NCBI GenBank assembly: GCA_049724395.1 | Contig: JAUGWO010000023.1 | Span: 248,001 to 312,000, forward strand | Reading direction: 5' to 3' | From: Spongospora subterranea f. sp. subterranea | Lineage: Eukaryota | DNA length: 64,000 nt | In this document: one piece after another, positions 3,894 to 35,381 of the stretch | How positions within the stretch are numbered: position 1 is the stretch's first letter | Layout of the letters: every line of letters begins with the position of its first letter | Notes under the pieces: model-generated | Seen by the model: the letters and a program-made list of their open reading frames with translations, nothing else | The model's database searches: none | What the model was told of the DNA's origin: nothing | Translations under genes and position numbers: made by a program

Positions 3894-5186
3894 ATGGAGA
3901 AGAATGTTGTAACTCAGATGGTGGTGCCCATCGTCGCCTTCCTGACCTGTCTGAACGCGACCGTAGTTGCAATCGGCGCTGACGGTCGTAGCAACAAGCG
4001 GCGCCGGACGAGAATTTTCACCATTCGCAACAACGTGTGGGAAGGTATATAGCTGAGTTTATTGTACCGATGGAGGTGTTTTCAACTGTCCTGAAGGCGT
4101 GGAGGCATGCCCCGACGATGGATGGTACCGGAACAATCTACTGGTGTCGCGCTCGACTTTCAACCACATTGTGCAGCGTTTAGAACAATGCGCCGATGAA
4201 AACGGCTCAAGAATTCCAGCGAGTAATGCTTTTGTCGATATGAGGATGAGGACTGCCATGGCCTTGCAGTTATTATCCCAAGACGGTGGGTTTATTGCCA
4301 CTGCCGCTGTTTTCGGCGTGTCCAAACCCGTCGTTATTACCAATGTCAATGAGGTTTGTTTGCTTTCACGGCTCCCTCTGCACTCTCTGGTTTTGGACGT
4401 TACCGACATGATAGCTTTCATACACTCGTTTACAATCATTGATTTATCATACAGGTGCTAGATATCCTGATATGTTTGGCCCAGCGTGTTATCCAGTTTT
4501 CCGCCACCCGGCAACAGTGGATTCGCGTGGCTTCTGACTTTGAGGAAATTCGCGCCTTCCCTGACGTCGATGCTTGCCAAGACGGATCGTTGTTCGAAAT
4601 CGAACGCCCATATGAGTATGACGGATGGATTTGTCGCAAAGGATTTGCTGCTATCAATATGCAAGCCTCTGTCGATGTTCTCGGACGTGTCATGGAGTAT
4701 TCATTGCGACCTGGTTCATGTAGTGATAAAAACGTCTGGAAGATGTCGAGTCTCGGAGGTCGATTTCGTACAATTCTTCCAGCGGACATGCATTTTATTG
4801 GTGATTCGGGCTACACGCTTACGTCGCAGATGCTCACCCCATACGTCATATATGAAGGCATGCCCAGTGAGGAGAAAAATTATAACAAGCGGCATTCTCA
4901 AACCCGAATCGATGTCGAAAGGGCTTTTGGAGGTCTAAAAGGGCGATGGAGGTTGTTAAAACGGACATTGAATATGAAATCGGCTGCCAGCTGCGGTCGG
5001 ACAATTGTCGCTGCAATGGTCTTGCATAATCTAACGATCGATGCTGGTGACGATCTCAATTTGGGCGACCGCGTTGATCCGTATCTAAATGCCAACATTC
5101 CTCAACAATTAACGACGGGCACATTATTGAAGATCAAATCGATCGCGAAGCCAAGAGAGACAGCATCAAGGATCATTTATGGATGA
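3894..5186 (+). CDS. Harbinger (HARBI1-like, DDE_Tnp_4) transposase, two introns, frameshifted near the C-terminus
   Basis: Catalytic motifs ACQDGSL, FIGDSGYTL, RIDVERAFGGLKGRWRLL and AAMVLHNL; N-terminal 'VSRSTFNHIVQRL' and 'AAVFGVSKPVV' HTH-like segment. Confidence 0.9.
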
Positions 5187-5756
5187 TACATGAGCATTAA
5201 AGTTCCAATATTGGTTTTCATTGCAATAATTTTTCAATGGACTGCAACAAGATGTTATTGATCTTGCCTTGCTGCGATCCTTGCTCTTCCAGCAACTTCA
5301 ATCGCTTATCCATTCTCATGAGAAGCGGAACGATCTCGTCATTCGTCGCGGTTTGAGTTGGCTGGGCAAACACTTTCCCCATTTCAATCAACGACCTGCT
5401 GACACCATCCATGCCCTGTTTCTGCCCAGCCAACTCAAACCGCGGCGAATGACGAGATCGTTCCGCTTCTCATGAGAATGGATAAGCGATTGAAGTTGCT
5501 GGAAGAGCAAGGATCGCAGCAAGGCAAGATCAATAACATTTTGTTGCAGTCCATTGGAAAATTATTGCAATGAAAACCAATATTGGAACTTTAATGCTCA
5601 TGTATCATCCATAAATGATCCTTGATGCTGTCCCTCTTGGCTTCGCGATCGATTTGATCTTCAATAATGTGCCCGACGTCAATTGGTTGGGGAATGTTGG
5701 CATTTAGATACGGATCAACGCGGTCGCCCAAATTGAGATCGTCACCAGCATCGATC
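5036..5756. repeat. Inverted duplication IR1: arms 5036-5368 and 5423-5756, 54-bp loop
   Basis: Hand alignment gives 7 substitutions and 1 indel over about 333 bp. Confidence 0.97.
5218..5422 (-). pseudogene. C-terminal remnant of the second, convergent Harbinger ORF (putative Myb/SANT partner)
   Basis: Coiled-coil-like ORF end (LMRMDKRLKLLEEQGSQQGKINNILLQSIEKLLQ*) convergent with the transposase; identity inferred only from the two-ORF layout of Harbingers. Confidence 0.4.
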
Positions 5757-6682
5757 TTTCAAAAATTGGTACGTTTTCATCTGTTTGACAATCAAAAGCA
5801 ACTTATCAACTATCTCCTTCCCCAAAAGAGGAATTACTGAAGGATCAGATTCCTATTGCAAAATTCGACGTACAATTCGTGTAACGCAAGTCATTTTTGA
5901 ATAAAATTAAGCCAGTCAGATAATATATACTCTTGACTGTGACTCTTTAGTTCAAGCGAAACTATCCCGGCACCTGGCCAGTTGCCGTCACCCAGCAGTC
6001 CGCGCAGGTGCCGGTACAGTACACCCTAGAAAGTTTTACCGTACTGTGGGTGATTTGGCGCACTTTTTACCCAACGGGTGGTGACTGGTGAGTGAACGTT
6101 AGGTACAGGCTACAGCACGTAGCGTAAGGTAGAGTCGGTGATATGCCGGATGGTCACGGTTGAAAGTGGTCATGGTGCAGCCTGACGATGTGTTTGCCGA
6201 CCTGCCTAATGTAGTGAGCGGGTATCTTGGCCATGCGATCTTGGATCTATCTGGCAATATCGACACGGTATTCTTGGCAGAACTCAGCACTCAATCCCTC
6301 TTATCAAGTGTGACATAGACAAATGGAACATTGGACGATAAATCATTGATATTATCTAGAATACTCAAGATGACGAATTTGATATCTGAAAGTGCATTAC
6401 AGGGCAGAAGTTTATCCAATATGAACGGTCGGAATTTCATAATTCCTGGAGAGTATGGTCCCTGACATCGTATGTTCTTACCTGTAGTCGCCTTCGGCGA
6501 TGGAACTTGTCTAATAATGATACGAAGTGGAAATCGCATTGCTCTTGTTCACCGAGAAAAAGTCCAACCATCAGCTGAATCTGCAGATGCTGATCCTGCT
6601 CTAACTGTTTCCAGCTGAAATTTTTATTTTTTTTTTCAACAGCAGATCATTACAATAATTTATACATATCTTATATTAGTAT

Positions 6683-7620
6683 TCACAAATACCGGTTCTC
6701 ATTGACGTGCCGGATTGTAAGTGATGTTCGGGTGGATCTTTGATAGACATTTCCTGGTTCAACTTGCGCCTCCATAGCGTTCACGATTTTCGATGATATA
6801 TTGTCATATTTGCACTGAAAATCAATGGTTAAAACGATAGCAGTCGGCAATGCCAAATGTTTCATTTACAGCTTTTCTATTTGATGAAAGTAATCGCTAT
6901 ACAACGAGTCCCTGAATATTAGCAAGCTCTTTGGCCTAAGATATACTTGCAAATCAGGGTTTACGGAGGACGCATCCGCCAGCGATCGATAGAAACTCAT
7001 TATTGCCCCCGAGCCCAGTGATAAAATGGCGACACAAGGGAGATAGAGCGGCCCATCGGTATGGGCCATAATCCTGTAGTTGGTGGACAGCGATCAAACA
7101 GCAACGAAGGTGAATCATATCAAGCCGTTATACCCTTCACCTGGCTTGTATTGATTAACCAGAATGTGATTGGGATGTTGAGATTCCGGGAATACGCCAA
7201 AGCTGCAGACACGATCGGTGATGGCATGTAGGTAATTGGGCAAAGGTTCCGGGTTCAAACCATCCGGTTGAGGCTGACCACCAAACTGTTGGAGACGTCG
7301 TCGTTTGAGTTCAATCCATGTCTGAGATTCGAACTGCGCCAATAATCCGCATTGTTCAACATCGGATACCTGAAACGCATTGCTCAACAGGCGGTATTGA
7401 AAAGTCTTCAAATAGTACCCACAAAATTTTCGATATAAAATAATGATGGAATAAAACCAATCGGGGCTGGAAGGATTGTGATCGTCAAAAGTTGCGATTG
7501 ACCTCGAATCTTATCCGCCAGCCGATCTGGATCACAAACAGTTATCTCAGGCTCAAGTTTGCAGGGACTTTTATGTGCCCGAATGGCTGACAACAGGGAC
7601 GCCGTCCCTATCACCACCAT
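6683..7620 (-). CDS. ALKBH6: AlkB homolog 6-like 2OG-Fe(II) dioxygenase, spliced
   Basis: WIELKRRRLQQFGG, PNHILVNQYKPGEG, MAHTDGPLYLPCVAILSLGS (HxD), RSTRTSLTIRHV. Confidence 0.85.
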
Positions 7621-8017
7621 GAGTGATTATTGTAGAAACCGTACAGTACGATAATCTAGATTCAAAACTCCGTCTCCAAGCACAAAAATACGGTAAATAA
7701 CTAATATTGCGTTCGGTCTGTGGACGTGGCCCCTCGAAGATTACATTCGTACAGGAAACGCACCATGGTTTTTACAGGTACTGTACATACAACAGTCCCC
7801 GCCTGAGTCTCGAAGAGAAGAAGAGACGATCTTACCTTAATGATATCACAGCATCGAGACTGGAGTTGATTAACAACTACGTTGAGATACAAACGTATGA
7901 TATGTATCGTCCTAATGTCGTTAGCGCTATGCGCGTAGCTTCGGGCCAGCTAAGAGCAAAGCGAGACAACCTAAGGGACAGAGTCCTAGAAATGCGCGGC
8001 AAGCTCGATGTGCAAGA

Positions 8018-8516
8018 TCTGAGGAGTACGGTGGATGCGTTGATACTGCAATTCGTCGAGGTATTAGATATGGTAGGCACCTCCATCGAGTTCAACGATT
8101 CGGTGATCTGCATGGAAGCCATTCAGGCGCAGCCTAGCTCAGAAGCGTCCTTAGCTCGTGTCTCCCTCAATACTGGTGATGGTAGAGCAACGCCAGTAGC
8201 TAGATCAGCACCTTCTGTGGACGCTGGTGTAGCGACAGGAGTAGGCCTTACCTCCGCGCTTTCATCTTCGTCAGAGCTGTAGTCGATGGAGACAATGTCA
8301 GAGCTACGAATTGTCCGAGAAGGTGCTGATCTAGCTACTGGCGTTGCTCTACCATCACCAGTATTGAGGGAGACACGAGCTGAGGACGCTTCTGAGCTAG
8401 GCTGTGCCTGAATGGCTTCCATGCAGATCACCGAATCGTTGAACTCGATGGAGGTACCTACCATATCTAATACCTCGACGAATTGCAGTATCAACGCATC
8501 CACCGTACTCCTCAGA
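8018..8516. repeat. Inverted duplication IR2: arms 8018-8216 and 8318-8516, 101-bp loop
   Basis: 199-bp arms with 3 transitions; ORFs 7707-8282(+) and 8123-8689(-) share the peptide LRSTVDALILQF...ARSAPS. Confidence 0.97.
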
Positions 8517-9184
8517 CCGAAATCCAGTTTTCCCTCAAAACCCAATAACAGTTGAATATCGGTCATACCCTTAGCTGCAATCCGGGATTTGGCAGATTTA
8601 CATGCCATCGGACTCGTCACTGCTGAAGAGTTCCAAACTCTAAAGACAATATCGATTGAGAAGCTTTCTGCAACAATGCTGCCTAGCAATGTTGCAAATT
8701 TAACTGCAGAAAATGGGGTCGCTGTTACTATCTCGTCAGGTTAAATAATAATTCTTGCTCCTTGGCAGTCCGAGTACTCATTTGACTTACATTTTAGTGC
8801 ATCATGATGTAATTTCACACAAATACAGCAAAGCGGAAGCTGAAAGTTCACCAGCAGTACCTTCAGGTGCGCACAGTATGTTTTCGTCACGCAAAATGAG
8901 TAAACATGCCTTTTCTCAAATGTTTCAGTAAACCTCGTAAGCCTCCTCTGCAGCAGTCAAATTTGCATGCTTTCTTTGGCCCATCAATTTTGACAGCGAA
9001 AGCCAGTGGCCAACAGTTTGTTTCTGAAAATTGCCCTCGTTTCGCTCGAGATAGACATCAGTGTACTGACTGCAAAAAAAGCGGCTCAAGCGCTGATTGC
9101 ACTTTGAAAAACGCACTCAATAATTCAAGGTTGAGGAAATTTGAAAATGATGATTATCCCTTGTTAACGAACATGTTTTGAAAT

Positions 9185-10430
9185 TTGATAGACTTTGAAG
9201 ATGAGGTCCCGATTAGGAACAACATCAGCAGTGGTCAAGAACGTCGCTGTCGGTACAGTTACGGGATGAAGTCTGAAATTTTGGAAAATATAGAGATTCT
9301 CCAAAAAGAGATGTGTTTACGGGCTGAGGCAGTACGCAGCGTGAGTAATTCATCAGGGATTTCCAGTGATGTTGTGACGAAGTGATTAAATTCTGCTTCT
9401 GAAATCAGAAACATGGCGAGCTGCTCCTCTAATTCACGTAAACGTGGGCGAATCAATTGTCCTTGGCTCATTCATCTCAGAAGGGTAAAGAGAGAGTTAA
9501 GAAGCGAGGTGCGACAACGTCGCCGTAATGGCCTAAAAGCCAATCGAACCTGGATCATATCTCGTGCTCGCCAACTGAGGAAAATACTTACTATCGTATT
9601 CAGCTTTCCCGTTCCTGGTATTAATCTGGGTTTCTTCCCCGACAAGGGTTTTCGATCCGACGATGAAGCAATCACAAGAAATTGGCAGCTTCGCAAAGCA
9701 GCCCCGCGATTTTCGAATTTTTTTTCGCAATTTTCTCAGTCTCCGACCGTTGGCACCAAGTATGGGTTTTACAAGCCATCCTCGCTATTCAACTTGTTCG
9801 ACCAGGTAACGAGCACATTATGCAAGAAACAGCTATCAACTTGTGTCTTCTAGGTCCCATTGCATTTCATCTGTGAAGGTGATAAAAAAACTGAAAACAA
9901 TAAGGGTGCTGAGCGTGTTTGGGTTCGGCAGCCACGTTCCGGTTATGAAAAACGACGATGCACCTTGCATCTTACGCTTTGTGCGGATTCTCAAGCGCCG
10001 CAACCAAAGCCTATCATCGTCTTCCGAGGTGCCGGGACCATGACTATGAATTCTAGCGAAACCAGTGAATGGGTGCTTTATCGCATTTTCAAATTAAAAG
10101 TGGAAACCCATGTGATTTATTGCTTTTTTTCAGGATCCTCGCATAAGTGTCCTGTTTCAGGCAAACGCGTGGGTAGACGGGCTTACAGCAATCAATATCG
10201 CGAAGTTATATTTACAAGACCCTGTTTTTCAACAGGATCGTGCAGAGAGCCGCCTATCTCTGTGTGATAATCTAGATGCACATCAAAACTCTGATTTCTG
10301 CAGTTCAATGGAGAAGTTGGGCAAATCAATATACTTCCCTCCCAATGTTACAGATATGATTCAACCAAGTATTCAAATTACTCATCTGTAAAACTGTAGT
10401 CGATGGTGGAGTTGGACGGATGCTCAATCA
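9185..10430 (+). pseudogene. Degenerate pogo/Tigger-like (CENP-B HTH + DDE_1) transposase
   Basis: ELRSEVRQRRRNGLKANRTWIISRARQL, KGAERVWVRQPRSGYEKRRCTLHLTLCAD, PKPIIVFRG, FQANAWVD, CDNLDAHQ, LPPNVTDMIQP; stops and frameshifts. Confidence 0.8.
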
Positions 10431-10684
10431 GAACCATCAGACTCCCTGTGGTACCTCGTGGCCATGTAGAACCAATCTTCTATCACTCAGACTCAATTGT
10501 TTAGCCACTAATCCATCACGGGCTCTGACAAGATGGTTCATCGAATGGTCAAAACACATCAATCGTCACATTCGGCGGCGGTCGGATATCTGAGCAACTA
10601 GTCCGAATTATCCCAAATCTATCTTCGTTGCATCCAGGCTTAATCAACACTCCCGCTTCCTTTGAAACTTGAAGATGCTGTCTC

Positions 10685-10996
10685 TGAGCCAGAAATGCCT
10701 TCCGACGAATACGTCAACCCCTGTCAGGAAGCAGTGGTGTTCAAGTGGATAGAAGGGGCTCGTCTTGCTCGCTCTGAATATATCAGGAATAGCAGGGCCT
10801 CGGTATGCAGACATCAGAAAGCAAGAAGAGACAGGGAGGAGTCGATGATTGTCAATTTTAGGTCTGATGTCTATATACCGAGGCCCTGCTATTCCCGGTA
10901 TATGCGAAGCGAGCAAGACAAGCCCCTTCTATCCACTTGAGCACAACTGCTTCCTGACATGGGTTCACGTATTCTTTGGGCGGCATTTCTGGCTCA
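10685..10996. repeat. Inverted duplication IR3: arms 10685-10818 and 10863-10996, 44-bp loop
   Basis: 134-bp ungapped arms with 16 mismatches by hand count (about 88% identity). Confidence 0.95.
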
Positions 10997-11728
10997 ATCT
11001 CATACATCTGATCCAGACCTTCATCAGAGACAGTTTCAGCGTTAGTAAGCCACAAACCATCAGACAAATCGCCATCACTCCCAAAGCAAAGCTTACCAAT
11101 CGATTCTGCCAATGCACGACCTTGCAAATGACAGATGTCGCTGGCGCTTGGTGTTCCTGCCCATGCTGTAAAAACTTAATCGAGAAGAGGTCGCCGCCAC
11201 GACTGCTTTTGCGAGCTCGGCGCATTATGTTCAAGTTGCGGAGTCCTGAAACTGCGCCGAGATTAACAGTCGGAAAAAGGCGACTGAGTTCCCAAGAAGA
11301 TATTGCGCAAAGTGTATCGAAAGTGGATTCGCAGATGTTCACTTCAACAAAGGAAAGTTTCCTGAAAGTAAACCACCAGTCGGTGCCGATGATGAAACTA
11401 TAATTTTTGACGAAGACATCGTCGAGGCATCAAATGCATGTTCATCAGACTCGTCCTCTTCAAGTGCAGACCTTCCAACCCAATCCGGTTCAGAGTATGA
11501 TCAGACATCACAGAATGTTATTCCCATGTCAGAAGCGTATGTAGAATCGGAGCCCTCCACAACATCAGAGCACCATGATCCGCTACCGGTCAGCGCTTTC
11601 GACTGTTAATCTCTACAAACGTTTGATTCTGATGATCAAATTGCGTACGGATATTAAGTCGCGGTGCGAAGGCCAGTTGAAAAGCGTCACCGGCACAACG
11701 GATTTATATGCGACATCGATCCTTCTTT

Positions 11729-12897
11729 GAAAACGGTATAGTAATATTCACGATCCTGCATCCAGAATGCGATGCTTTTTATATGTTCGACAACTCCCAG
11801 AACCAACTTGCTCTCTCACCTGACGCTCTGAATAACAAAGTGCTTACCAGTCAAAGATAATGGCAAAAATGTCAAGCCATGGATGGGCGTTTGCAGAGAG
11901 CGAAGAGAAGGTAATTCAGTCAATGATGACATCACAGGGAACGGCAAAAGGTTTTCGTACGATTTTGACGGAACGTATTCTATGGGCCTCCACTCTATCT
12001 CGTAAAGCCGCCGTCGAGTTATTTCAATAGCAGTCAGATTTTAGGAACAGCAATGCTGGTTATCGAAAACTGTTGTCAAGCATCCTGGATTTCTGATAGA
12101 TTCTATCCAAAATGTCATTCCGAATTTGATCATCTAGAGATGTATTGGGCAGCGTGCAAAATTTTTACAAGAAGGAACTGTACCTATTCCTTCAAAGGTC
12201 TCCAAAAGATTGTTCCTTTATCTTTACAAAGTGTTCCACTGGTGCACATACAAAATTCGCGAGAAAGTGTTTCCAATATCTGGACACGTACAGAGTCCAT
12301 TGGGAGAATTGAAATGAGCAAATATTTTTATAGTGCAAATGTTTGCGGGCACAGTCAATGATTTTTCATTTTTTGTCACCTTCTACTTTTCAGCTTTTCA
12401 AAATTCTTGTTGGTATGTAGCGATGGCTACGATATTTTCTTACTGCATGGACCTGGTCGGTCGTCAACCCTGTTTCAATTTTCCCAATGGACTCGATACG
12501 TGTCCATATATTGACATTCGCAGTGGAATTTTGGATAGAAATCTATCAGAAATCCAGGATGCTCGACAACAGTTTCCGATAACCAGCATTGTTTTGTTCC
12601 TGAAAATCTGGTTGCTGTTGCAATAATTCCTCGGCTGTTGTACGAGATAGAGTGGAGTCCCATAAGCTATGTTCCGTCAAATGGTACGAAGGCCTTTCAT
12701 TGGCTGAATTACCTTCTCTCCGCTCTCTGCCAAAAGCCATCCATGGCTTTGCTGCTTGACATTTTTGCCATTATCTTTGACTGGTAGCACTTTGACAGAG
12801 CGTCAGGTGGGAGAGCAAGTTGGTTCTGGGAGTTGTCGAACATGAGTGAAGCATCGCATTCGAGATGCAGAATCTTGAAAATCACTACAACCTTTTC
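11729..12897. repeat. Inverted duplication IR4 of a degenerate transposase: arms about 11729-12314 and 12473-12897, loop about 158 bp
   Basis: Blocks such as ttcgacaactcccagaaccaacttgctctc and tcctggatttctgatagatt recur reverse-complemented; the right arm lacks about 150 bp (about 12126-12273 of the left arm). Confidence 0.92.
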
Positions 12898-13000
12898 GAG
12901 CTGCTTAATCAGATCAGAATTGGTCCAGTAACCCCCATCGTCGTTTTAATTATTACAACTGACTCAGCATGGATAATTAGTATGAACCAAACAATGTTCC
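11729..13000. pseudogene. IS630/Tc1-mariner-related DDE transposase relics, one copy per strand
   Basis: Minus copy: GYWTNSDLIKQL, MFDNSQNQLALPPDAL, FYPKFHCE, AVRKYRSHR. Plus copy: FYPKCHSEFDHLEMYWAACKIFTRRNCTYSFKGL. Confidence 0.75.
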
Positions 13001-14642
13001 ATTGCGCGCTATCAGTTTTCTGTAAAATAACTCAAAATATCACGATACATTATTGAACGATCCTCTTGTGGATCTCCTGTTTCCAGATGCCGTTTCAGGA
13101 CGGGATACGCTTGCGAATTTGGGCTGTATAGTGTCTTTTAGTAAATTATCTATGTGTAAGAAATAAGCATACCTGATTCATAAGACCTGAAACTGAATTG
13201 GATGATGTTTTTCCTGGTGCTGAGCCTGGTCGACGTAATCGTTGCTGCAGAGAACGACTAGCTTCGCTTGCCGCTGATAACAAGTCAGGTGTGCTTTTTT
13301 TGTGTTTTTTCTTGCTTGCGGCACGCCCGCGAATAATCCTGATTCGGGGAAAGCATCGAATGAGATTTCCATCGAAAAAACATAAACCCTTAACAAACTT
13401 GGCATTTTTTTCAATTTTATCGAAATTAATATCTGCTATCACAGGCTTTTTTTTGGTGATATCAACAGTCGAGGCTGCATTTCCCTAAGTAAAAGTCAAA
13501 AGAGCGAACATTATGAGTCCGTTGACACACCTCTTCCGAACACAGCCGTAAATTCCTTGAACTTCTAACATCAAGTTGAAGACGGTGATTTGCCTATATT
13601 TAAGCAGTATACTCAGCAGAGTGAAATAGAGCGAACAAGAGAGCCTACAAACAGACGCATCCATTGAATTGTGGTTGGAGGTAAGCCGCAATCGGTGAAT
13701 GCATACTGCCATCGGGGTAATCCCAAATGCAGGAATAGTAATCGTACATACTCTGTAAAAGTATTGCACAGAAAGTAATACCGGCATGATAGATCTTGGA
13801 AATAAATACGACTTTTACTTAAATCTGATGACTCTAATATGAGCATAGTGGAGCTACTGATATGAGCCGTGATAATACCAGATTCGCAGACAAGGACAAC
13901 TCTGCCATCTATGCAAAGAGAATCCAAGTCGAACGCCAGTGACAAGTTTGACGGCGCCGAATTCGAGGCAGTGTTTGAAATGAAGGTTGCAGTGCTGATA
14001 TCCACCCGGTTTAATTTATTGATCCGAATTGATATTCAACGACCCAATATTCAACAAGTCGCCTATAATATCGTAATGAAATACGATTTATTACAGCTCT
14101 ATCCTGACGAGAAAACTAACCTTTATATCTCACTTTCCATTTAAGGAGCAGGCCGTTCTGCATCAGAAAAAAATTCTGTAAATCTTTGGGTAAACGGCAA
14201 GATTTGTTGGCCGCAACCCATCGCCCAAGCTCGACTAACGTAATAGTATGATCAATCCTGATTGTTTTCCGGAGATGAGGTCACCATCGGTGGCAGGGGT
14301 TCGTTCGACCAGCTCAATACTGCAGACACCCGGCTGAGATTCGAGGTATGGAATAATGGACAGGGATATCCTATTGAAGACCGAGCGCATCTACTCACTT
14401 TCAACCCTATAGGGTAGTTGAATCACAATGCACTATGGTTGGGGGTAGCGATTGGCATTCACACTGGGACTTGCCCAGTTACTGGAGGTGCCTCCACCTT
14501 TCGATGCGGTTTTTTGAGGAAAGGGGGATGGCTGGCGGGGAACTTGGACCATTTTGTGGCATAAGATTGTTGCATTTGTTGATATATATATTCACCGATG
14601 AAGTGCAGAAACAAGGACGGTGCTGTCGTAGATGCAATATTT

Positions 14643-15600: not shown

Positions 15601-15625
15601 AAGATGTAACGGAAGGCGCCCATTG

Positions 15626-18353: not shown

Positions 18354-19037
18354 ATCACGTCAATACTATCCGCAAATGCATTCCGCCGTCAAATGAGCCT
18401 AACTCCATCAACTTAAAATGTTTCAAAAAATATTATATAGAACCATCAGTACAAGTTTGCCTGCTGCCCAATTGACAGTAAATAGGTGTAAAACCAGAAT
18501 ACGTGTCGACACACAAAGGGAAGACTCTGTACACTGTTATTCGGTAGCGCCAAATTCATTGATTCAGATTCAGATAGCATTCATCATAGTTCATTTAAAC
18601 AAAGAAGTTTCGGTGAATTACACAGACTCAAATTCAGGTGGCAGGGGGCTGACGGCATGACAGCACAATAATTTCAATCAGCGGAATTATAGAGCGCCTG
18701 AAATCATAGGGCAACGCTTTCACAGGCAAATACATTTACGGAGATCCAGCATACGGTTCAGACCTGGTCGTTTGTCCGTTCGCTTTTGCCGAACCGGGAG
18801 CAGGCAATCGGAGTTTAATAGATCGATATGCTTCAGTCAGAAAAACCGTGGAATTGAGTTCTGGCCGTCTGAAAACTCTGTGGCCTACGGTCGCATACGA
18901 CACGGAACTGAAAGTTCGTCAGTTCACAATTGGCACTGTTAACGACTTCGTATTGTTGTTTGCAGCCGCAAGGAAAAACCGATCTTAAAGTATTTCGGCA
19001 TTTTCCTCCGAGTTTGGAATACTATTTGACGCTTAAA

Positions 19038-19256
19038 ACTCAAAGCTGAGTGGCTTGATCGGCTGGAGTCGGATCGCCGTACTGTGAACGAATATGATAT
19101 TGATTTTACTTTTTGTTAATAAACATCCTCATCACATCTCCCATCTGCGCAAGAACACGATGCATCTGTGCATCGTTCACAGCACGGCGACCAGACTCCA
19201 GCCGATCAAGCTTGAGCCGCTCATCTTTGAGTGCAAGTTTCTCCTCAGCTTTGAGT
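19038..19256. repeat. Short eroded inverted duplication IR6
   Basis: 19053-19091 pairs with 19173-19211 (39 bp, 3 mismatches, 81-bp loop); 19038-19050 pairs perfectly with 19244-19256. Confidence 0.85.
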
Positions 19257-19543
19257 GCAAGCTTTTCCTTTTCAGATTGCACAGCCCATGAATCGCACCC
19301 TGAGAGGTGGACATCAACTGATCCAGTTTTTCGCTCTTGGTGATTTTGCGTTTTTTCTTTCTGGACATATACACAGTGGCGATCACCCAACACCCGATCG
19401 GGTTGAACCTCTACTGTGGTGTATGCGGATTAACTGTAGAAATGAGTGTTTGAGGTGGTGGGTGCCGCTATTTCATTGGAGTTATAAATGACTGAAACAG
19501 GGATGCGCCCAACTACAGAACTTCATTTTCAGTAATAACTCCG

Positions 19544-23810: not shown

Positions 23811-23980
23811 GTTATGAAATTCTAGCAGAGATATCTAATGGACCATCTGGTGATCTGGAACCAATTACCAATATCATTCGAGATCAGTAGGGCTGGAGGC
23901 TGCGCTGATTACGCTCTATCGCATTATTCGCACAGTGTGATGACTGAGGGTTCCGCTGTTCCGAAACGACTGCACCATTT

Positions 23981-26298: not shown

Positions 26299-26373
26299 TT
26301 CATATCTACAGTAACAAACGTTGGCATGTGTTTATTTTCAACAAAGGTGAACCTGCCGCACACCCTTTTGCCA

Positions 26374-27093
26374 TCATTGAAACACAATGGCGATTGCTGC
26401 CAAGACCAACGCAACGTAAGAGCTTACAGTACTGGCTGACGATTTTGTTGGAGCTGTCGTGGCGACGGTGGTTGCCTTCTTCGTCGTCTTCTTAGAGGTT
26501 GTTTGTTTCGCAGTCCCTGTCGGTGGAAGAGTTTGAGCTTCAAAAAGGTTGGTCTTAACCGCCCCGAATTGCCCATCTGGGTGAATGTTGTAGTCGATCT
26601 TTCCTCCATCTATGAATGTCGGTACATCGGATCCGTATGCCCAGGCGACGTATATGTCTTTTTTTTCAATAACAACATCTCGCGTCCCATCCTTGGTGTC
26701 TAAGGCTCGGCGGAATTTGTACCAAATTCCGTTGTCAATGAGTCCTCCGTCTAATAAGTTCAGGTTGTCGACGCCGCCGAGTGTTGTATCAAGTTCCGGT
26801 TGGCGGTGATTATTCGAGAACTGATCATAGAGAAATAATGTGTTATTTGTCAAAAACCCAACCATTACGTCACTGTTCTTGTGTCCCGATGGGCCATCAT
26901 AGGATAGCCCCAATCCAACCCATCCTGTTGTCTTTGCCCAGACCGTGAAGTCGATTGTGGCGTTTGCCGTATTCACTTCCCACATTACGTGCCATTCCTT
27001 GTTCGGGCTGGCCAACGTTCCATTGATTGCCTGTCCATAGTTTGCAGAGAGTGCCAAGACCAATATTATCGCTAAACACTGTGTTTTCATCAT
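26374..27093 (-). CDS. Secreted, probably GPI-anchored DOMON-domain protein
   Basis: Signal peptide; TTGWVGLGLS, SDVMVG, PELDT, FRRALDT, VAWAYG; Thr/Lys-rich stalk; hydrophobic C-terminus. Confidence 0.9.
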   Translation of the reverse strand: MMKTQCLAIILVLALSANYGQAINGTLASPNKEWHVMWEVNTANATIDFTVWAKTTGWVGLGLSYDGPSGHKNSDVMVGFLTNNTLFLYDQFSNNHRQPELDTTLGGVDNLNLLDGGLIDNGIWYKFRRALDTKDGTRDVVIEKKDIYVAWAYGSDVPTFIDGGKIDYNIHPDGQFGAVKTNLFEAQTLPPTGTAKQTTSKKTTKKATTVATTAPTKSSASTVSSYVALVLAAIAIVFQ

Positions 27094-27710
27094 TATCAAA
27101 CGTGTTCGAAATGACAATGGGGCTCTTAAGCTCGGTGCAGCAGTTGACCAGAAAGGCTACACGAATCTCGACTACATTTTGAGCAAGTTTCTTCTCTGGA
27201 ATTTACTGGATAAAACATTATGCACATCTGGAATGTTTATCGCGATAGTTTATCTAAAGATCCGGACAAAGTTTTGAACACATTTTTCCAGATACGGTGT
27301 CATGTTAGCGACGTCACCTATCAAAACTTAAATTGTTATGTCGAAGCCACAGCGAATAACAGATCTGAATTGATATAAATTGTCAACCCTTTATAGTGAG
27401 TCGGCTCAAACGAGCAAATGCTGGACTGAGTGGCTGGTCAACGTCACGCTCATTTCCGAGGTCCCATAATTGTAAGTCATTCCCGTCGCCGTATTTATAG
27501 GCATCCATGGCGTGGATAGTGATCAGTGTTATGGACCTTCTTGGCTCATATAAAACATGATGAAGGCGTGCTCATATTCAACCATGATGCCAACGCGGAC
27601 CTCCCTGGTGCTTGCACCAACCTTGTTAATGAACCGCATTCGCTCTCTCTGACTTCACTCAAATCTTTCAATCAAAACCAATGCTTGGCATGCTGATCGT
27701 TCCAACTGTT

Positions 27711-28871
27711 TTATTTACGGTGGTTTCTTATGGAATAGTATGTGTTTAAGACTGTGGAATACTCCAACCTCCATGCTCTTAGCCTTAAGGACGCGCCATG
27801 AGTGATGCAGTATATAATGCCTGACAACTTGTTTGGTTGCATCACCAGACACTGCAATGCAGTTTCACCTGAACAGGATTTGGCGTCGATGGTGGCGCCA
27901 GCTTCAAGCATAATATCGGTCAATTTCGTATGACCATTAAGGGTCATCATAAAAGCGTGATGTATCACATCCGGTTTACGCCTATTTATTGATCCATAAT
28001 CCGACAGAATATGAAACCATCTGTCATTACGTTCAGCGAAAGCGCCAGAATGAATACATACCAGTGGGATGCTGTCAATATCGAACCCAAATTCGACCAA
28101 GGACTGAATCTGTGATTCAAAGGACGGGGTCATTTTTGCAAAAATAAAAAAGTTGGTGGAATCAATATGAAGAGCGATATCGACGGCACTAATAACAGCG
28201 TCGGTGAAATCGTACTTGATAAGCACACGATGCACAGCATTCCGATGATAACTTGGGCGGTTGATAGGAAATTCCAGCAAGAACTCACGATGTTCAAATT
28301 GGCAATGCCGGCGCAGCCAGACGAGAACACTCCGGGCTCGATTTTGGGTCAGGAAGTGTTCCATGGGACGAAGCATCCGAATACAAACGCCGAAGATGAG
28401 ACCGACATGCCATTTCCATCGTAAGAAAATCGTCTCAAGAAACAGTTCCAAATCCAGTCTCAGGGCGAATATAATTATTCTTCGGAACCAGGGCAATATA
28501 CGAAATGGACGAGAGACGGTTTGCCATGGACCTGAGACGAACTGTGGGTTGCATTTTAGGGCGCGGCAGGAAAAGGTGAACCTCGACGCATGGCGCAGAA
28601 ACATGTGAGCAGAGAACTGAAAAAAGTGTACTTGCGAACAATAAAGGCGAACAAGAGGATAAGTCTCCTGGGAAATTTGCACCTCCATGACCTCAATAGT
28701 CTCGAAATCTAAATAAGCCATAATAGAGAAAATTGTGCACTGGTGAGTGAACAATGAGAGCAGGCCCGGATGGAGTCCAGGCGAATACATGCATAATCCC
28801 CAGAAAGGGAAATGAAGAACCCATTGCCGGAACCGGAGAAGATTCCTCCGACGGCATGTTCCGATCACCAC
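27711..28871 (-). CDS. Hypothetical protein with C-terminal ankyrin repeats
   Basis: LNGHTKLTDIMLEAGATIDAKSCSGETALQ; 386-aa ORF with uncertain start. Confidence 0.6.
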   Translation of the reverse strand: MVIGTCRRRNLLRFRQWVLHFPFWGLCMYSPGLHPGLLSLFTHQCTIFSIMAYLDFETIEVMEVQISQETYPLVRLYCSQVHFFQFSAHMFLRHASRFTFSCRALKCNPQFVSGPWQTVSRPFRILPWFRRIIIFALRLDLELFLETIFLRWKWHVGLIFGVCIRMLRPMEHFLTQNRARSVLVWLRRHCQFEHREFLLEFPINRPSYHRNAVHRVLIKYDFTDAVISAVDIALHIDSTNFFIFAKMTPSFESQIQSLVEFGFDIDSIPLVCIHSGAFAERNDRWFHILSDYGSINRRKPDVIHHAFMMTLNGHTKLTDIMLEAGATIDAKSCSGETALQCLVMQPNKLSGIIYCITHGASLRLRAWRLEYSTVLNTYYSIRNHRK

Positions 28872-29192
28872 GACGCCATGGCCTTACCTTCGCAAATTGG
28901 CTTTGAAATTGCCACGCTCAAAAGTACTGGCCGTTCCACCCAATGAATTCCAACAACCAATCTTAATTCGATAATGAAGGTATTCTGAACCTCAGAATCT
29001 TAAATATGAGAATTGCAAGTCACGCCGGGTCCATAGATTGCCAACTTCGGGGACCATGCCACCATGCCACCACATACTGCTGGCAGAAACACCCGTCATG
29101 GCGCAAGTTGCTGAGCTGTCAGCGCCCAATACATGTTATCACCTAATTCGCTTGCCCTTCAACAGTATCCGGATCCGTTTAAACGTTTTATC

Positions 29193-30771: not shown

Positions 30772-31099
30772 CTACCAGACCGTCATCGTGATCAGCACAT
30801 GTCGGCAATGACGACAGTGGGAGGTGACGGTGGGCGGCCTATCCTCTACCGCGGACTCTCGCACAATAGGGTACACTAAGTGCATCCCCACCCCAGACCC
30901 CACGGATTAAGTCCGGAGGCTAACGCTAGATCCAGTCGGGCCCGGCCTGACTACCTGGCGGGCTTTTTCCCTCGCTCAGATGGCTGTACGGGAAAGGGTT
31001 TTGATTCTAATCGCATATTGTTCTTCACTTTGACTCCTCTATAGCGTTTCATCAGTAATCGCTGTTTCTTCACCGGTTGTCGGATGTATCAGACAGCGC

Positions 31100-31405
31100 C
31101 CCTGTTAATACGATGTATTCTATTAGCTTTGGTGTCATAATCGTTTATTAATACTTGTAATTAGTGGTTGTTCATCGCAAATTCGCCGTCCGGTGATTGA
31201 AGATAATGACGGCTCTGTTATGGCGAGTATACCAGTTGCGTTTGGTGTCATGATGGTTTATCAATACTTGTAATCAGTGGTTGTAATCGCAAATTCGCGC
31301 GTCCGGTGATGTTTATCCAGGCAATAATGCCTCTGTTGATGCGAGGTATACCAATAGCTTTTGGCGTCATAATCGTTTATCAATACTTGTAATCAGTAAT
31401 TGTTA
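31100..31405. repeat. Degenerate tandem repeat, unit about 115 bp, about 2.7 copies
   Basis: Core tttggYgtcatRatSgtttatYaatacttgtaatYagt at about 31128, 31241 and 31360. Confidence 0.9.
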
Positions 31406-32087
31406 CGTCCCAGACGTCTTTTTCCAAAGCGTCAAAATCGAACTCACAGCGAGTGCATTGAAATATCAAAGTACACAAGTCATTTTATTTTTAAACGATG
31501 GATGAACAAAATTATAAATACATGATGTTAAAATAAGTGTTTCATTCATCTATTTTGCGTGCGTTGAAAGAATATCGTTTACATAATACATGTTCGAGCA
31601 AGTTTAATACAAATGCTGATATCCTCCATTTGAACATGAAATGAAATAGAGTAGTTTGCGATGGAGTCTTTCCGAAGCACTCACAGTGCTTTTGATGTTG
31701 ACGCTTTCGAAAAGACATCTCGGCATATCATAGTTAACCAGTTTCCAAGAGATCCGATACCAGTATACTGAAGGTCTATGGAGCGCACGGTGCACGGTCC
31801 ACTGGCGCACTTATATTTGGGTACGCGTGGACAAAAGAACCTTCCGCCCGCACTGTGCAATATAGTTTATACTGTAGTTTCGCAATACCCTACTGGAAGC
31901 TGCGGTCAATTGTGAAACTAGGGTTTTCCCACTCGACATACCAATGGTTTAAAGGATTTTATATTATTTCATAACGATTCGACTGACTCAGTATCGCCAT
32001 ATAATACATTTGGCGCGACGGTCAAGACAAATACTGACACGGAGGGATACGCCCCCTTACTGCTGAAAATTATTCGCTTTTTTCCAA

Positions 32088-33360
32088 AACGCGATGGTCG
32101 TAGGTCGCAAGCGGAAGAGAGCTCAAACGGTACGAGTTGAATTCGATTTCAGTGAGGTCATCCGCGCTCGACATGCGATAATATTGCTGACCGACCCTAG
32201 GATGACGAAATGACGCGCAATGTCAACGGCAGCGAAGCGTCGCCAGCGGACGAAGACGAATTCCCGTCGAACCCAACCATATGGTCGGAAGGCGAGCTCC
32301 TTGCCAGGAGTCGTGGGTTTCGCCAGCAAAATTATTTGCCTAGCTTGTGGCCGGCTCTATGCCACCGAATCGGCGTGTAAACGCCATCTTAGCGACGCCA
32401 AAGACGAGGCACATTTTATCAAACCCGATTCGCGTACGCCCCGTGAACTCATCCGTTTGGGTTGGATGGTGTCGTGCGGCGATCTCGTGGAAAATGCACA
32501 CAGGGACGCGACGGGAATCGGGGCTGCCATAACGGCGACAATGTCGTATATGTATACGGTGTTTGAACAAACAACCCGCACCGATTTGTTCGATTCAAGA
32601 TTCCATGCGGCGGTGGAGTTACTTTCTACGCATCAAGACGTTGTGCTGGACGCCCTTGACCCAGAAAATGTTTGTCAAGAAGAACGATGGAAGTCTCCGT
32701 TTATGAGTGGATCGTGCCGACGCCTGCCCGCGCATGCACAGAAGCAAACCTTTGATGATAAAACCCAGATATTGAGTCGGCGGCGCGGTTTCTGGATCCA
32801 GGGTGTCGAGCACAATGTCTTGAGTCGTTGACAGTAACTCGACCGCCGCTTGAAAACGGGAATCTGCCAGGTCGGTGCGAGTTGTCTGTTGGAAAACTGT
32901 AAACATGTACGACATTGTCGCCGTGATCGCTGCTCCGATTCCAGAGGCATCCCTGTATGCGTTTTCCACCAGGTCGCCGCACGACACCATCCAACCGAGA
33001 CGGATAAGTTCACGGGGCGTGCAGGAATCGGGCTGTATAAAATGTGCCTCGTCTTTGGCGTCTATGAGATGGCGTTTACACGCGGAATCGGTGGCATACA
33101 GCCGGCCACACGCCAAGCATATAATTTTGCTGGGGGAAACCCCACGACTCTTGGCGAGGAGTTCGCCTTCCGACCATATGGTTGGGTTCGACGGGAATTC
33201 GTCTTCGACGCTTCGCTGCCGTTGACAGAGCGCGTCCTTTCGTCATCCTAGGGTCGGTCAGCAATATTCTCGCATGTCGAGCGTGGATTACCTCACTGAA
33301 ATCGGATTCAACTCGTACCGTTTGAGCTCTCTTCCGCTTGCGACCTGCGACCATCGCGTT
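32088..33360. repeat. Inverted duplication IR5: arms 32088-32667 and 32789-33360, 121-bp loop; both arms are disabled copies of a C2H2-zinc-finger ORF
   Basis: ORFs 32220-32831(+) and 32619-33116(-) are homologous (CLACGRLYATxSACKRHLxDAKDEAH); sampled identity about 95% at the outer end and about 84% inside. Confidence 0.97.
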
Positions 33361-33656
33361 GGGCAGGGCGGATATATCCCTGGTGCTTTCCAGCATTCGG
33401 GTTGAACATTTGTTCAACAGACAACCTCCAAGTCGGACGGATATATAAATCCAACTCCTGTGGGTATCGGTAGTATATCCATCTCAAACTCTCCTGGAGA
33501 GCATCTACCAGTTTTTGCAATCGAATACAATCATTTTGACACTGATGATAGTGACATTCAACAAATGTTGAACATGGGAAAAGCAACTGCTCAACTACCT
33601 GTAAACTAAAACCAACTAGTGCCCTGTCGGCCATTCGGCTAGCCGTGGTCAGACAC

Positions 33657-34009
33657 CATGTTGTAACGTATGCATTTACATCTTGATCATGTTGCCCTGC
33701 ACCGGGAGCAGGAAATGTTACACCCGGCACTGAGAGCGGGATGATAGTCAATGCAGACACGATGCTGTAACGTATGCATTTACCTCTCAGTCATGATGTT
33801 ACCCTGCACCGGGAGCATGACATGTTACAAACCCGGCACTGGGAGCGGGGTTCATTGTTATATTCGATCATTGTTAAAATCGATGGCGCAAACGCGCTCA
33901 TGTGGTGTTCCTGTTGTCGCCCCCCCCCCCGCCTCATGTCCTTCCGGGAGCAGGTCAGGTTACACACCCGGCACCGGGAGCAGGTCAGGTTACACAACCG
34001 GCACCCGGG
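33657..34009. repeat. Nested direct repeats: about 85-90-bp unit x2 and 30-bp unit x2 with a shared core (ccgggagca...gttaca...ccggcac)
   Basis: Copies at about 33657, 33761, 33944 and 33974. Confidence 0.9.
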
Positions 34010-35262
34010 AAGCGTGTTTTGAGAGTCAACTCGAATGAAATGAGCTTTCACTCTGTAGACGGATAATGTTCAACAAATGTTGAACATTAACAATGGCGAC
34101 CTGTATTTATTGGCTTGGCCTGAAACTCTGCACAAGGTCGGGGAGAATGTCTATGTGACCTTGCAACTGTTTTCTGATTCATAGCGACAGTCGTCGAAGA
34201 GCTGGCCCTGTAGGATCCTGAATAGACGAGCTGAATACGCGCTGAGTGGGGTCCAACAAAGTGCGCTGATTTGACAACACACAAGTTCCACACCTCATCA
34301 TCCTCAGTATAACGGTCCGAGCAGTCTCTGTTTGTCATTCCAAGGATATGGGGGCGAATACACGCGCAGGCAGTAAAAACTGTTTTTATTGCTGATCATT
34401 CTCTGACAAATCAAATCCAACCGTGTTTGCGTACAGTACACCTTGACCAGCATCGATAACGGATCTCTGACTAATTCGGATTTCAGGCTATGCTGTGCTA
34501 GAATAACATTCTGCTCAGCCGCTAAAGCCATTCGAAGTTGCACGAACTCCCGATTGGTCGCTTACGTGTTCCAGTCTTGATATCCGCTGGGCTCATAGCC
34601 GGTCAAAAGCGCGGAATTTGGCGAGCAAATGGTCGACAATTTCATTGCCCATGGGACACATTTTTTCAATACCCAGATCTGTTACAACCGGTGCGCATAT
34701 TCGCAAAGTTAACTCCCGCTGAAGTGCTTAATGCAATCTATGATAAGATGCTGCTCTTCATTCCATACCCAGGCTTGGCTTTATCACTTGGATGGTTTTT
34801 TCATTATCTTCCTTCCTTGGGTTGAAAGTTCTTAGAGTGGTTGGTGTTGACAAAGTTATTGAATCGTGTCCCTTGGGCTTTGTTCCTGGATTTTTTTTTA
34901 TCCGCGATCGCGCTTGGTTGCCGTAATCTGACTCACCGCAGAGGTCCCATAACTGTGGATATTGCGCAGTTGTCAATAATAGCTGAGTCCGTACAAGGTC
35001 CGACAAACCCAGCGTGTTCCAGATATGGACGGGGATCAAACTCCACATTGCGTAGTTTGGGTCAAAACTGGGTGAAATCTATTTCAAATTAACATGAATT
35101 TACTGTATATCAATACTGGACAAAAAGCGACGAAAGAATGAGAAATCATTGGGGAATGGATAGGGGGGTTTAAGACCATAACAGATTGTCGCAGAGTGCA
35201 ATTTAGAATTTCATGGTTTTACACACCTCTACATGTTCCCCCAGCACGTCTTTGGGCTTTGG

Positions 35263-35381
35263 TACAAGGCCCGTGGAGCATTTCAATCTGCCGATTGACG
35301 TTGGCAATGGTGGGGTGCAGGCGCTTCCGTGAAGGTGCCGGGCACCCCACCATTGCCAACGTCAATCGGACGGGCCTTGTA
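35263..35381. ncRNA. Pre-miRNA-like hairpin (candidate)
   Basis: Perfect 28-bp stem 35291-35318/35342-35369 plus perfect 12-bp basal stem 35263-35274/35370-35381; the structure is certain, expression is not shown. Confidence 0.45.

What the first reader, a model, noticed from the sequence alone, without database searches (positions are those of the whole stretch)
5036..35381. Candidate genome-defence system: an archive of transposon fragments converted into short-loop hairpins
Seen: six inverted duplications in about 28 kb (arms about 40-580 bp, loops 44-160 bp). They come from a Harbinger, an IS630/Tc1-like transposase, a zinc-finger element and unidentified ORF relics. None is in a recognisable housekeeping gene, where a reading direction can be assigned the arms are tail-to-tail, and identities range from about 98% to about 80%, so formation was recurrent. 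Known: transcribed inverted TE fragments silence whole families in trans through Dicer siRNAs (maize Mu killer), and long hairpin RNAs are siRNA sources in Drosophila. Inference: this genome repeatedly makes or retains fold-back copies of invading elements as hairpin siRNA sources, a heritable record of past invaders. I know of no description of this as a systematic feature in such a protist. The pogo relic at 9185-10430 shows no fold-back, so the pattern is not universal.
Basis: partly seen in the sequence, partly recalled or inferred. Interest (0 to 1): 0.9.

Follow-up and report, generated by a model that had tools for sequence, protein, structure and literature searches.

The report
Fold-back hairpins likely feed protist RNAi
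This stretch of the potato powdery-scab parasite's genome holds seven real mirror-image duplications cut from broken transposon and orphan genes, and they likely supply double-stranded RNA to a silencing pathway whose source of such RNA is unknown in this group, though no small RNAs were seen here and an anti-transposon role is untested.

Summary
There are seven short-loop inverted duplications (arms 28-586 bp, 82-100% identity) against 0 in 25 shuffles. Loops A, C and D are bridged in short-read DNA contigs, so those are not assembly artefacts. The genome is Spongospora subterranea (DCP2 100% identical). TE origin is shown for A (Harbinger) and D (Tc1/IS630-like) and is likely for C and E; B, F and G are unassigned. 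F joins two long-diverged paralogs (dS 0.89, dN/dS 0.08). A 2026 paper reports that the relative Plasmodiophora brassicae has Argonautes and a Drosha-like RNase III but no Dicer or RdRP, and calls its dsRNA source unknown. My re-analysis of its tables finds phased siRNA loci in equal-length twins (31 of 68 close pairs, 10.5 expected; median arm 299, gap 132 bp), centred on predicted fold-backs (13 of 24, 4.5 expected). That is the geometry seen here. Against: no RNA contig spans a loop; A's transposase RNA is polyadenylated before its loop; C's family is still transcribed. Best reading: repair by-products that serve as RdRP-independent siRNA sources. A selected 'defence archive' is unproven.

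The parts
3591..6041 (+). Harbinger/PIF element containing hairpin A; a 16-bp perfect inverted match at 3591-3606 / 6026-6041 may be its termini (no clear target-site duplication); 21-bp subterminal tandem repeats at 3682-3889
   Evidence: termini are inference
4443..5186 (+). Harbinger transposase, 3' exon (upstream coding from ~3900); its mRNA is polyadenylated at ~5226, inside the left arm of A
   Evidence: Pfam DDE_Tnp_4 E=4e-28; one X4 RNA contig with left-arm variants ends in a T-run plus adapter (position mapped)
5218..5421 (-). C-terminal remnant of Harbinger ORF2, running through loop A into the left arm; the rest of ORF2 is replaced by the inverted copy
   Evidence: aligns to the ORF2 tail of intact relative L001, score 59 vs shuffle maximum 42 of 200
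5033..5759 (.). Hairpin A: arms 5033-5368 / 5423-5759, 97.6%, loop 54
   Evidence: loop bridged in X1 and X2; fold z=-52
7701..8282 (+). Orphan 193-aa ORF whose stop lies in loop B; no family found; no sign of close copies
   Evidence: low-depth X4 RNA contig at 7828-8016
8018..8516 (.). Hairpin B: arms 8018-8216 / 8318-8516, 98.5%, loop 101
   Evidence: all four junction pieces in X1 and X2 (30-nt overlaps at the loop)
8384..8818 (+). Spliced + strand RNA from this locus covering 133 nt of B's right arm, a SHOCT-like exon of a multi-copy element, and a GT..AG intron at ~8738-8795
   Evidence: X4 contig, 0 differences over 354 nt; Pfam SHOCT E=4e-5, below curated cut-off
9185..10686 (+). pogo-like transposase relic of a multi-copy, still transcribed family; truncated at 10686 and joined to hairpin C
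10685..10996 (.). Hairpin C: arms 10685-10818 / 10863-10996, 88%, loop 44; from an unnamed multi-copy spliced gene (longer copy 10863-~11600 on -)
   Evidence: loop bridged in X1; family RNA contig continues from arm into loop-like sequence
11729..12897 (.). Hairpin D: arms 11729-12314 / 12473-12897, loop 158; from the 3' part of a Tc1/IS630-type transposase, with the ORF stop (12310-12312) at the inner end of the arm
   Evidence: ESM Atlas 0.96, 203-204 shared features, Tc1-like DDE/DDE_3 clusters; bridged in X1 and X2; Pfam, NCBIfam and sequence searches blank
12370..14400 (-). Spliced transcript of the neighbouring host gene; its contig runs through D's right arm and stops in the loop at an A-rich tract
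   Evidence: X4 contig of 3851 nt with CT..AC joints; tract shown
19038..19232 (.). Hairpin E: arms 19038-19091 / 19173-19232, 91%, loop 81, inside a likely second Harbinger relic (~18600-19480)
   Evidence: weak match of the flank to the L001 transposase, 2 of 200 shuffles as good; Pfam blank
31409..31723 (.). H: 48-bp inverted pair, 81%, around a 220-bp AT-rich spacer; MITE-like, not counted among the seven
32088..33360 (.). Hairpin F: arms 32088-32667 / 32789-33360, loop 121; two frameshifted tail-to-tail copies of an orphan C2H2-like zinc-finger gene; arms start 6 nt before the ATG and include a predicted 71-nt intron; chimeric divergence
   Evidence: inner 111 codons dS 0.89, dN 0.074; intron 67 of 71 identical; no homolog; Atlas 0.91 C2H2-type cluster, a lead only
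35287..35374 (.). Hairpin G: 28-bp perfect core within an ~88-nt pre-miRNA-like stem-loop; origin unknown
   Evidence: z=-11.7 on +, -9.8 on -; no Rfam match

Best explanation
The seven hairpins are local inverted duplications, likely made by fold-back repair at broken transposons and orphan genes, and some of them likely act as the double-stranded RNA source for the plasmodiophorid Drosha-like/Argonaute pathway, which appears to lack an RdRP. Steps: (1) SHOWN: a fragment of a gene is copied in reverse next to itself, the loop is the natural continuation of one arm (A, B, C, F), and in A the copy replaces most of ORF2 inside an otherwise bounded element. (2) INFERRED: the event is template switching or abortive gap repair at a double-strand break, for example after transposase cutting; F instead involved a second, diverged paralog. 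(3) PARTLY SHOWN: element promoters or neighbouring host genes transcribe into the arms (A, B, D), but read-through across a loop is not shown. (4) INFERRED from P. brassicae: read-through RNA folds back, the two-RNase-III protein cuts phased 21-nt siRNAs from the stem and none from the loop, and Argonaute carries them. (5) UNTESTED: these siRNAs would damp the parent locus and any family member similar enough. Retention needs no dedicated archiving machinery: such rearrangements are tolerated only outside needed genes.
For: Reality and structure. Intact Harbinger relatives L001 and L002 (61-63% identical; near-identical to each other, so one element) have a full convergent ORF2 and no hairpin. 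Machinery: S. subterranea and P. brassicae have Argonautes and one gene with two RNase III domains plus dsRBD, and no RdRP was detected in P. brassicae (PMC4471660 passage). In P. brassicae this protein cuts long dsRNA to 21-mers, siRNAs are phased and come mainly from intergenic DNA and TEs, and the dsRNA source is called unknown (PMC13547706). Re-analysis of its Tables S6 and S8: 68 of 416 adjacent phased loci lie within 300 bp (2.1 expected if uniform). 31 of these 68 have length ratio >=0.85, against 10.5 +/- 2.9 with shuffled partners and 9.7 +/- 2.8 with random splits (0 of 20,000 reached 31) and 35 of 289 distant pairs. Twin median arm 299 bp, gap 132 bp. Predicted fold-back precursors lying inside phased loci are centred in 13 of 24 (4.5 expected, p=1e-4); 17 of 55 overlaps coincide reciprocally. 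7 of 68 close pairs are spanned by a precursor, 5 of the 7 centred within 25 nt of the gap. Transition mismatches favour G:U on the + strand, 52 vs 30 (p=0.02). B, C, D, E and F are all tail-to-tail by my ORF assignments (5 of 5).
Against: No small-RNA data for this species were available (one search lists only contig runs). No RNA contig bridges any of the four loops laid (A, B, C, D). A's transposase RNA is polyadenylated ~143 nt before the loop (one contig, one run), and D's read-through contig stops in the loop. C's family and the pogo-like family give spliced RNA contigs, so they are not shut off in that sample. The G:U bias falls to 31 vs 19 (p=0.12) without F and could come from strand-biased deamination or replication. 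The P. brassicae test uses coordinates only. Twins could also be tandem direct repeats with multi-mapped reads or adjacent exons; only 7 of 68 pairs have orientation support; precursor calling may favour locus centres; and it is a different genus. Absence of RdRP in S. subterranea itself was not tested. Arms of C and D have decayed with indels, as unselected DNA does.
Confidence: 0.5

Rival explanations
1. Inert repair scars. Fold-back duplications arise at breaks in mobile or dispensable DNA, persist because nothing selects against them, and give no meaningful small RNA.
For: A is an internal deletion-plus-inversion of a Harbinger, as abortive gap repair would give (mechanism from established knowledge). 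C and D decay without clear codon bias and with indels. No loop-spanning RNA; A's RNA is polyadenylated before its loop; C's family is expressed. Absence from host genes is explained by purifying selection. An earlier AI note reached this reading for five hairpins in another genome (e1-7152427, unchecked).
Against: Twin, hairpin-centred geometry of phased siRNA loci in the related P. brassicae. RNA enters arms A, B and D. 5 of 5 assignable hairpins are tail-to-tail. Mild G:U bias. An RNase III that cuts any long dsRNA would act on even rare read-through.
Confidence: 0.3
2. Selected defence archive. The genome makes or keeps TE fold-backs because their siRNAs silence the families in trans, and arms can be updated from diverged paralogs, as F may show.
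For: A, D and likely C and E derive from DNA transposons. A, B and D show few diverged contigs at 90% likeness or more, compatible with families that stopped spreading (depth is only a rough guide). F carries sequence from two paralogs. Without RdRP a fold-back would be one of few ways to start silencing (inference). Precedents: Mu killer (PMC3440606, listing) and tomato pararetroviral inverted repeats (PMC9868043, abstract).
Against: C's family has many diverged copies and spliced RNA despite its hairpin. B, F and G have no shown TE origin. Low copy number equally means there is nothing to silence. No enrichment test was possible. P. brassicae sRNA loci are mainly intergenic, with TEs second.
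Confidence: 0.15
3. Assembly or amplification artefact (fold-back chimeras).
For: E, F, G and H were not checked in reads; one DNA run may be the window's own source.
Against: Arms differ by 0-18%, with codon-structured differences in F. Loops A and D are bridged in two DNA runs; over D the two runs carry different numbers of differences from the window (3 in 931 nt vs 7 in 789 nt). C is bridged in one run. An RNA contig carries A's left-arm variants.
Confidence: 0.02
4. Mixed bag with no common system: F is a remnant of an inverted pair of paralogous genes, G and H are MITE or miRNA-like stems, and only A, C, D and E are TE fold-backs, so the cluster is a coincidence of a TE-rich stretch.
For: F's inner arms show dN/dS 0.08 and its homology ends 6 nt before the ATG. 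H has a MITE-like layout. All seven fall in 30 kb of 64 kb, p~0.05, and the window was chosen for this density.
Against: The loops are uniformly short whatever the origin, and match the P. brassicae twin gaps. Origin need not be uniform for a shared RNase III fate.
Confidence: 0.03

Closest known systems
Palindromic siRNA loci of the budding yeast Naumovozyma castellii (bioRxiv 10.1101/2019.12.12.873604, passages read)
   Same: Genomic inverted repeats whose hairpin transcripts are the main siRNA source (74.1% of reads in wild type), in a pathway described as needing only Dicer and Argonaute. That many such loci are retrotransposon remnants is recalled from Drinnenberg 2009, not read.
   Different: Shown by small-RNA sequencing there, inferred here. 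Here the arms come from DNA transposons and orphan genes, and the predicted cutter is a Drosha-like protein in a rhizarian.
Maize Mu killer (PMC3440606) and alternative-transposition Ac/Ds silencers (10.1101/2020.01.07.897926); search listing and start of abstract only
   Same: Partial inverted duplication of a transposase gene, with read-through from a flanking gene proposed; D has a host transcript entering its arm.
   Different: Single loci of several kb with proven trans-silencing and plant RdDM behind them. Here many 0.1-1.3 kb loci, no silencing shown, and C's family is still expressed.
Inverted-repeat endogenous pararetroviral loci of tomato (PMC9868043, abstract read)
   Same: The same 'heritable record of past invaders' idea: a small set of expressed inverted rearrangements yields siRNAs.
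   Different: Viral source, plant host with full DCL/RDR machinery, siRNA and interference data in hand.
Drosophila hairpin RNAs (PMC10317233, search listing and start of abstract)
   Same: Gene-derived fold-backs feeding endogenous siRNA (that flies lack RdRP is recalled).
   Different: Few, selected loci against meiotic drivers, Dicer-2/AGO2; here dense, decaying loci with no target shown.
P. brassicae phased-siRNA and 'miRNA' loci (PMC13547706; abstract, introduction, results 2.1-2.6, discussion, sRNA methods passage, Tables S1-S8 and S11-S13 read; figures not seen)
   Same: Same order of protists. One palindromic locus is named in the Fig. 2G legend; 68 of 240 listed precursors are 300 nt or longer; twin geometry matches.
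   Different: The paper does not name inverted duplications as the siRNA source ('inverted' 0 hits in text and supplements) and never mentions Spongospora; whether those loci are TE-derived fold-backs was not checked.

Membership tests
Hairpin-RNA / palindromic endo-siRNA locus | Long inverted duplication with short spacer in the genome | tested here: met
   junctions of A, C, D bridged
Hairpin-RNA / palindromic endo-siRNA locus | One transcript spans both arms and the loop | tested here: inconclusive
   0 of 4 loops laid are bridged in RNA contigs (X4, X7, X8); RNA enters arms A, B, D; A is polyadenylated before its loop, D's contig stops in the loop. Contigs show presence, not absence
Hairpin-RNA / palindromic endo-siRNA locus | Phased ~21-nt RNAs from the arms, few from the loop | not testable with these tools
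   No small-RNA run for this species among the 21 listed; indirect support only from P. brassicae coordinates
Hairpin-RNA / palindromic endo-siRNA locus | RNase III and Argonaute present in the organism | not tested
   Not searched by me (no genome held); reported for S. subterranea in PMC4471660 (passage)
Mu killer-type trans-silencer | Partial inverted duplication of a transposase gene | tested here: met
   A and D; weak for E; not shown for B, F, G
Mu killer-type trans-silencer | Read-through from a flanking gene across the hairpin | tested here: inconclusive
   Host transcript covers D's right arm and ends in the loop
Mu killer-type trans-silencer | Cognate family silenced in trans | tested here: not met
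   For C and the pogo-like family, spliced RNA contigs of other copies are present in X4 and X7; A's own transposase RNA is present; partial damping cannot be excluded
MITE / foldback transposon | Terminal inverted repeats with target-site duplication, dispersed as whole units | tested here: not met
   Arms of A-F are internal coding fragments with unrelated outer flanks; no contig shows a whole A-D hairpin with other flanks (tables cut).
Amplification or assembly chimera | Identical arms and junction absent from other data sets | tested here: not met
   (A-D only)
miRNA gene born by inverted duplication (G) | One dominant miR/miR* duplex from a short stem-loop | not testable with these tools
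   Stem-loop folds well; no Rfam hit; no small-RNA data

The most novel reading that the evidence does not exclude
Plasmodiophorids, having no RdRP or Dicer, run their whole siRNA pathway on genomic fold-back duplications cut by a Drosha-like enzyme. An invading transposon or expanding gene family becomes silenceable only once one copy folds back, so the genome accumulates a large library of short-loop hairpins, and arms can be refreshed from diverged paralogs (F). This would answer the question, left open in print, of where P. brassicae siRNA precursors come from.
Probability: 0.3. Interest if true: 0.85.

Novelty: new variant of a known kind. Interest (0 to 1): 0.62.

Why it matters
The 2026 description of RNAi in P. 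brassicae leaves the origin of siRNA precursors explicitly open. These hairpins, plus the twin-locus pattern in that paper's own tables, give a concrete candidate that can be tested at once with public data by folding the 435 phased loci. If right, it shows a rhizarian RNAi pathway fed by DNA rearrangements and cut by a Drosha-like enzyme, convergent with budding yeast. It also tells those designing RNA-based crop protection which substrate the parasites' own enzyme normally meets. Hairpin-fed siRNA is known elsewhere, so this is not a new category. I found no description for plasmodiophorid nuclear genomes in searches or in passages; subscription papers and the S. subterranea genome reports were not seen.

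Tried and rejected
No whole genome was held, so the genome-wide scan, the TE-versus-intergenic enrichment test and a search for AGO, RNase III and RdRP could not be run. F protein: no homolog among 194 candidates, 0 hits in 1.84 billion representatives, none in viral contigs; Atlas 0.91 with 126 shared features is a lead only, so 'zinc-finger element' as a TE is unverified. D: sequence searches blank; only the Atlas supports Tc1/IS630. E: no BLAST match to A's transposase, 39 of 200 shuffles as good against A, ORF2 no match, plasmids blank. B and C proteins: no credible family. Rfam: 0 matches. Concerted evolution of arms: X1 and X2 show collapsed arm contigs with mixed variants at A and B; I rejected this as evidence of gene conversion because assemblers merge such bubbles. 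RNA gaps over loops A and B and over 11943-12356 are parts without cover and are not counted as absence. A contig ending 2 nt before B's stem (7828-8016, depth 7) is too thin to read as a cut site. A + strand joint at 11735 in X4 (depth 8) starts at a GT but its 3' side is unclear; not used. Contig depths were used only as a rough guide, not as copy number. Microhomology at junctions is short and not interpretable without ancestral sequence. L003 covers only 58 residues of the transposase and says nothing on hairpins. Earlier-findings look-ups by place and species words were empty. bioRxiv supplements were closed, and parts 6-33 of the P. brassicae spreadsheet (target predictions, primers) were not read.

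Full report
Organism. The DCP2 exon at 60152-61342 is 100% identical over 94% of its length to a UniRef protein of Spongospora subterranea and 60% to Plasmodiophora brassicae. The window is therefore from the potato powdery-scab plasmodiophorid (Rhizaria). No whole genome was held.

Observation. Self-comparison gives seven short-loop inverted duplications, A-G, plus a MITE-like pair H. Twenty-five block-wise shuffles gave none. All seven lie between 5.0 and 35.4 kb; the gene-dense remainder has none (Pfam survey). Two read-laying runs covered 5369-14400. In DNA runs X1 and X2, loop A is bridged with 53 nt on each side and D is bridged within 931- and 789-nt contigs; C is bridged in X1; B's loop contig has 30 nt on each side. 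An artefact is very unlikely for A-D.

What the arms are. A lies in a Harbinger (DDE_Tnp_4, E=4e-28). Two metagenome contigs with 61-63% identical transposases (L001, L002; near-identical to each other) show the intact layout, transposase and ORF2 convergent, and no hairpin. The window keeps only the last 67 codons of ORF2, which run through the loop into the left arm and align with the L001 ORF2 tail (score 59, shuffle maximum 42). So left arm plus loop is the original and the right arm replaced the rest of ORF2. A 16-bp inverted match at 3591/6041 may mark both element ends. D is the 3' part of a Tc1/IS630-type transposase by language-model features (0.96), though sequence searches were blank. 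C comes from an unnamed multi-copy spliced gene and is fused to the cut end of a pogo-like transposase at 10686. In this 6.2-kb stretch 73 of 157 X1 contigs are only 90-95% alike, and X4 and X7 hold spliced RNA of other copies. E sits in a likely second Harbinger relic (2 of 200 shuffles as good). B duplicates part of an orphan ORF whose stop is in the loop. G is an ~88-nt stem-loop of unknown origin. F is two frameshifted tail-to-tail copies of an orphan zinc-finger-like gene with no homolog anywhere searched. Its inner 111 codons differ at dS 0.89 and dN 0.074 (36 synonymous vs 13 non-synonymous codons), while its predicted intron is 67 of 71 identical. The inner arms thus come from two paralogs that were both under protein selection for a long time, and the outer part was copied or homogenised recently.

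Transcription. X4 is RNA by its GT..AG and CT..AC joints and by zero cover where DNA is even. It shows three things. (a) A contig with A's left-arm variants and the transposase ends in a T-run plus adapter at the position equal to ~5226, so that mRNA is polyadenylated 143 nt before the loop. (b) An exact, spliced + strand contig covers 133 nt of B's right arm and the next exon, and another covers B's left flank. (c) A spliced - strand host transcript runs through D's right arm and stops at an A-rich tract in the loop. No RNA contig bridges any of the four loops. Contigs cannot show absence, and fold-back RNA is both hard to copy and likely to be cut (established knowledge), so this is inconclusive, but (a) and (c) count against efficient read-through. 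Transition mismatches pair as G:U on the + strand 52 times against 30 on the - strand (p=0.02); without F's inner part 38 vs 19 (p=0.016), without F altogether 31 vs 19 (p=0.12). This is weak and could be mutational.

Machinery and the relative's small RNAs. Schwelm et al. [quoted passage not shown] Zhang et al. 2026 (PMC13547706) report phased 21-nt RNAs mainly from intergenic DNA and TEs, two AGOs, no Dicer or RdRP, a Drosha-like protein that cuts long dsRNA into 21-mers, and state that the dsRNA source is unknown. Of 416 adjacent pairs, 68 are within 300 bp (2.1 expected if uniform). Of these, 31 have nearly equal lengths (ratio 0.85 or more), against 10.5 for shuffled partners, 9.7 for random splits and 35 of 289 among distant pairs; length correlation is 0.59 vs 0.12. 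Twin arms have median 299 bp and gaps 132 bp, close to A-F (arms 54-586, loops 44-158). Fold-back precursors inside phased loci are centred in 13 of 24 cases (4.5 expected, p=1.2e-4), and 17 of 55 overlaps coincide with the whole locus; 5 of the 7 precursors spanning a close pair centre within 25 nt of the gap. Limits: coordinates only; tandem direct repeats or exon pairs could also give twins; precursor software may favour centres; different genus.

Mechanism. Best reading (0.5): fold-back by-products of break repair that, when read through, give the Drosha-like enzyme its substrate in an RdRP-less pathway. Formation as an inverted copy with the loop continuing one arm is shown; the repair route, the read-through, the dicing and any silencing are inferred. 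Inert scars remain a strong rival (0.3). The full selected defence archive gets 0.15, because C's family is expressed in spite of its hairpin and three hairpins lack a TE link.

Comparison and novelty. It works like the palindromic siRNA loci of N. castellii, which give 74% of that yeast's siRNA reads, and resembles Mu killer, tomato pararetroviral inverted repeats and fly hpRNAs (listing or abstract only). Membership in any of these is not established: the defining small RNAs could not be tested, and trans-silencing was not met for C. I found no account of such hairpins in plasmodiophorid nuclear genomes, within the limits of the library. An unchecked AI note describes a TE-fragment hairpin locus in the clubroot parasite and another describes similar hairpins as scars in a fungal-type genome, so the pattern is not unique to this window. 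The window was flagged for its density, so 7 in 64 kb should not be extrapolated; P. brassicae has one phased locus per ~58 kb. Verdict: real, a new variant of a known kind, interest 0.62, chiefly because it makes a stated open question testable with existing data.

Noticed in passing
window 6154-7675: Two spliced genes converge between hairpins A and B (6154-~6626 on +, 7675-~6668 on -) and are fused in one X4 contig, suggesting overlapping 3' ends, a second possible dsRNA source in an RdRP-less organism. Neither was named.
   Followed up: partly
window 5102-5115 vs 5676-5690: A's left arm carries a cluster of three substitutions and a 1-nt gap within 14 bp that shifts the transposase tail; the right arm keeps the frame that aligns with L001. 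The expressed RNA has the left-arm form.
   Followed up: partly
window 7861-7893: 31-bp deletion polymorphism in B's left-flank ORF, present in X2 and in part of X1.
   Followed up: no
window 5760-6061 and 11322-11735: Short stretches matched by many contigs with different flanks, likely element ends or MITEs; 5765-5887 is also inside an abundant RNA contig.
   Followed up: no
window 31097-31405 and 33650-34010: Diverged tandem repeats (113-bp unit x2.7; ~104-bp and 30-bp units) flank hairpin F on both sides.
   Followed up: no
window 46650-50612 (-): 1320-aa single open frame with no Pfam match at E<=1.
   Followed up: no
window 26374-27156 (-) and 27711-28883 (-): A DOMON-domain protein with an N-terminal hydrophobic stretch and an intronless 390-aa ORF with a weak ankyrin match; the first may be secreted.
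   Followed up: no
L003:1114-1270: A short piece 88% identical to the Harbinger transposase sits at the end of an otherwise bacterial-looking contig and shares its first residues with that frame; probably a misjoin.
   Followed up: no
PMC13547706 Table S6: A 155+368-nt pair of phased loci recurs near the ends of contigs 2, 14 and 17, i.e. a repeated subtelomeric siRNA unit in P. brassicae.
   Followed up: no
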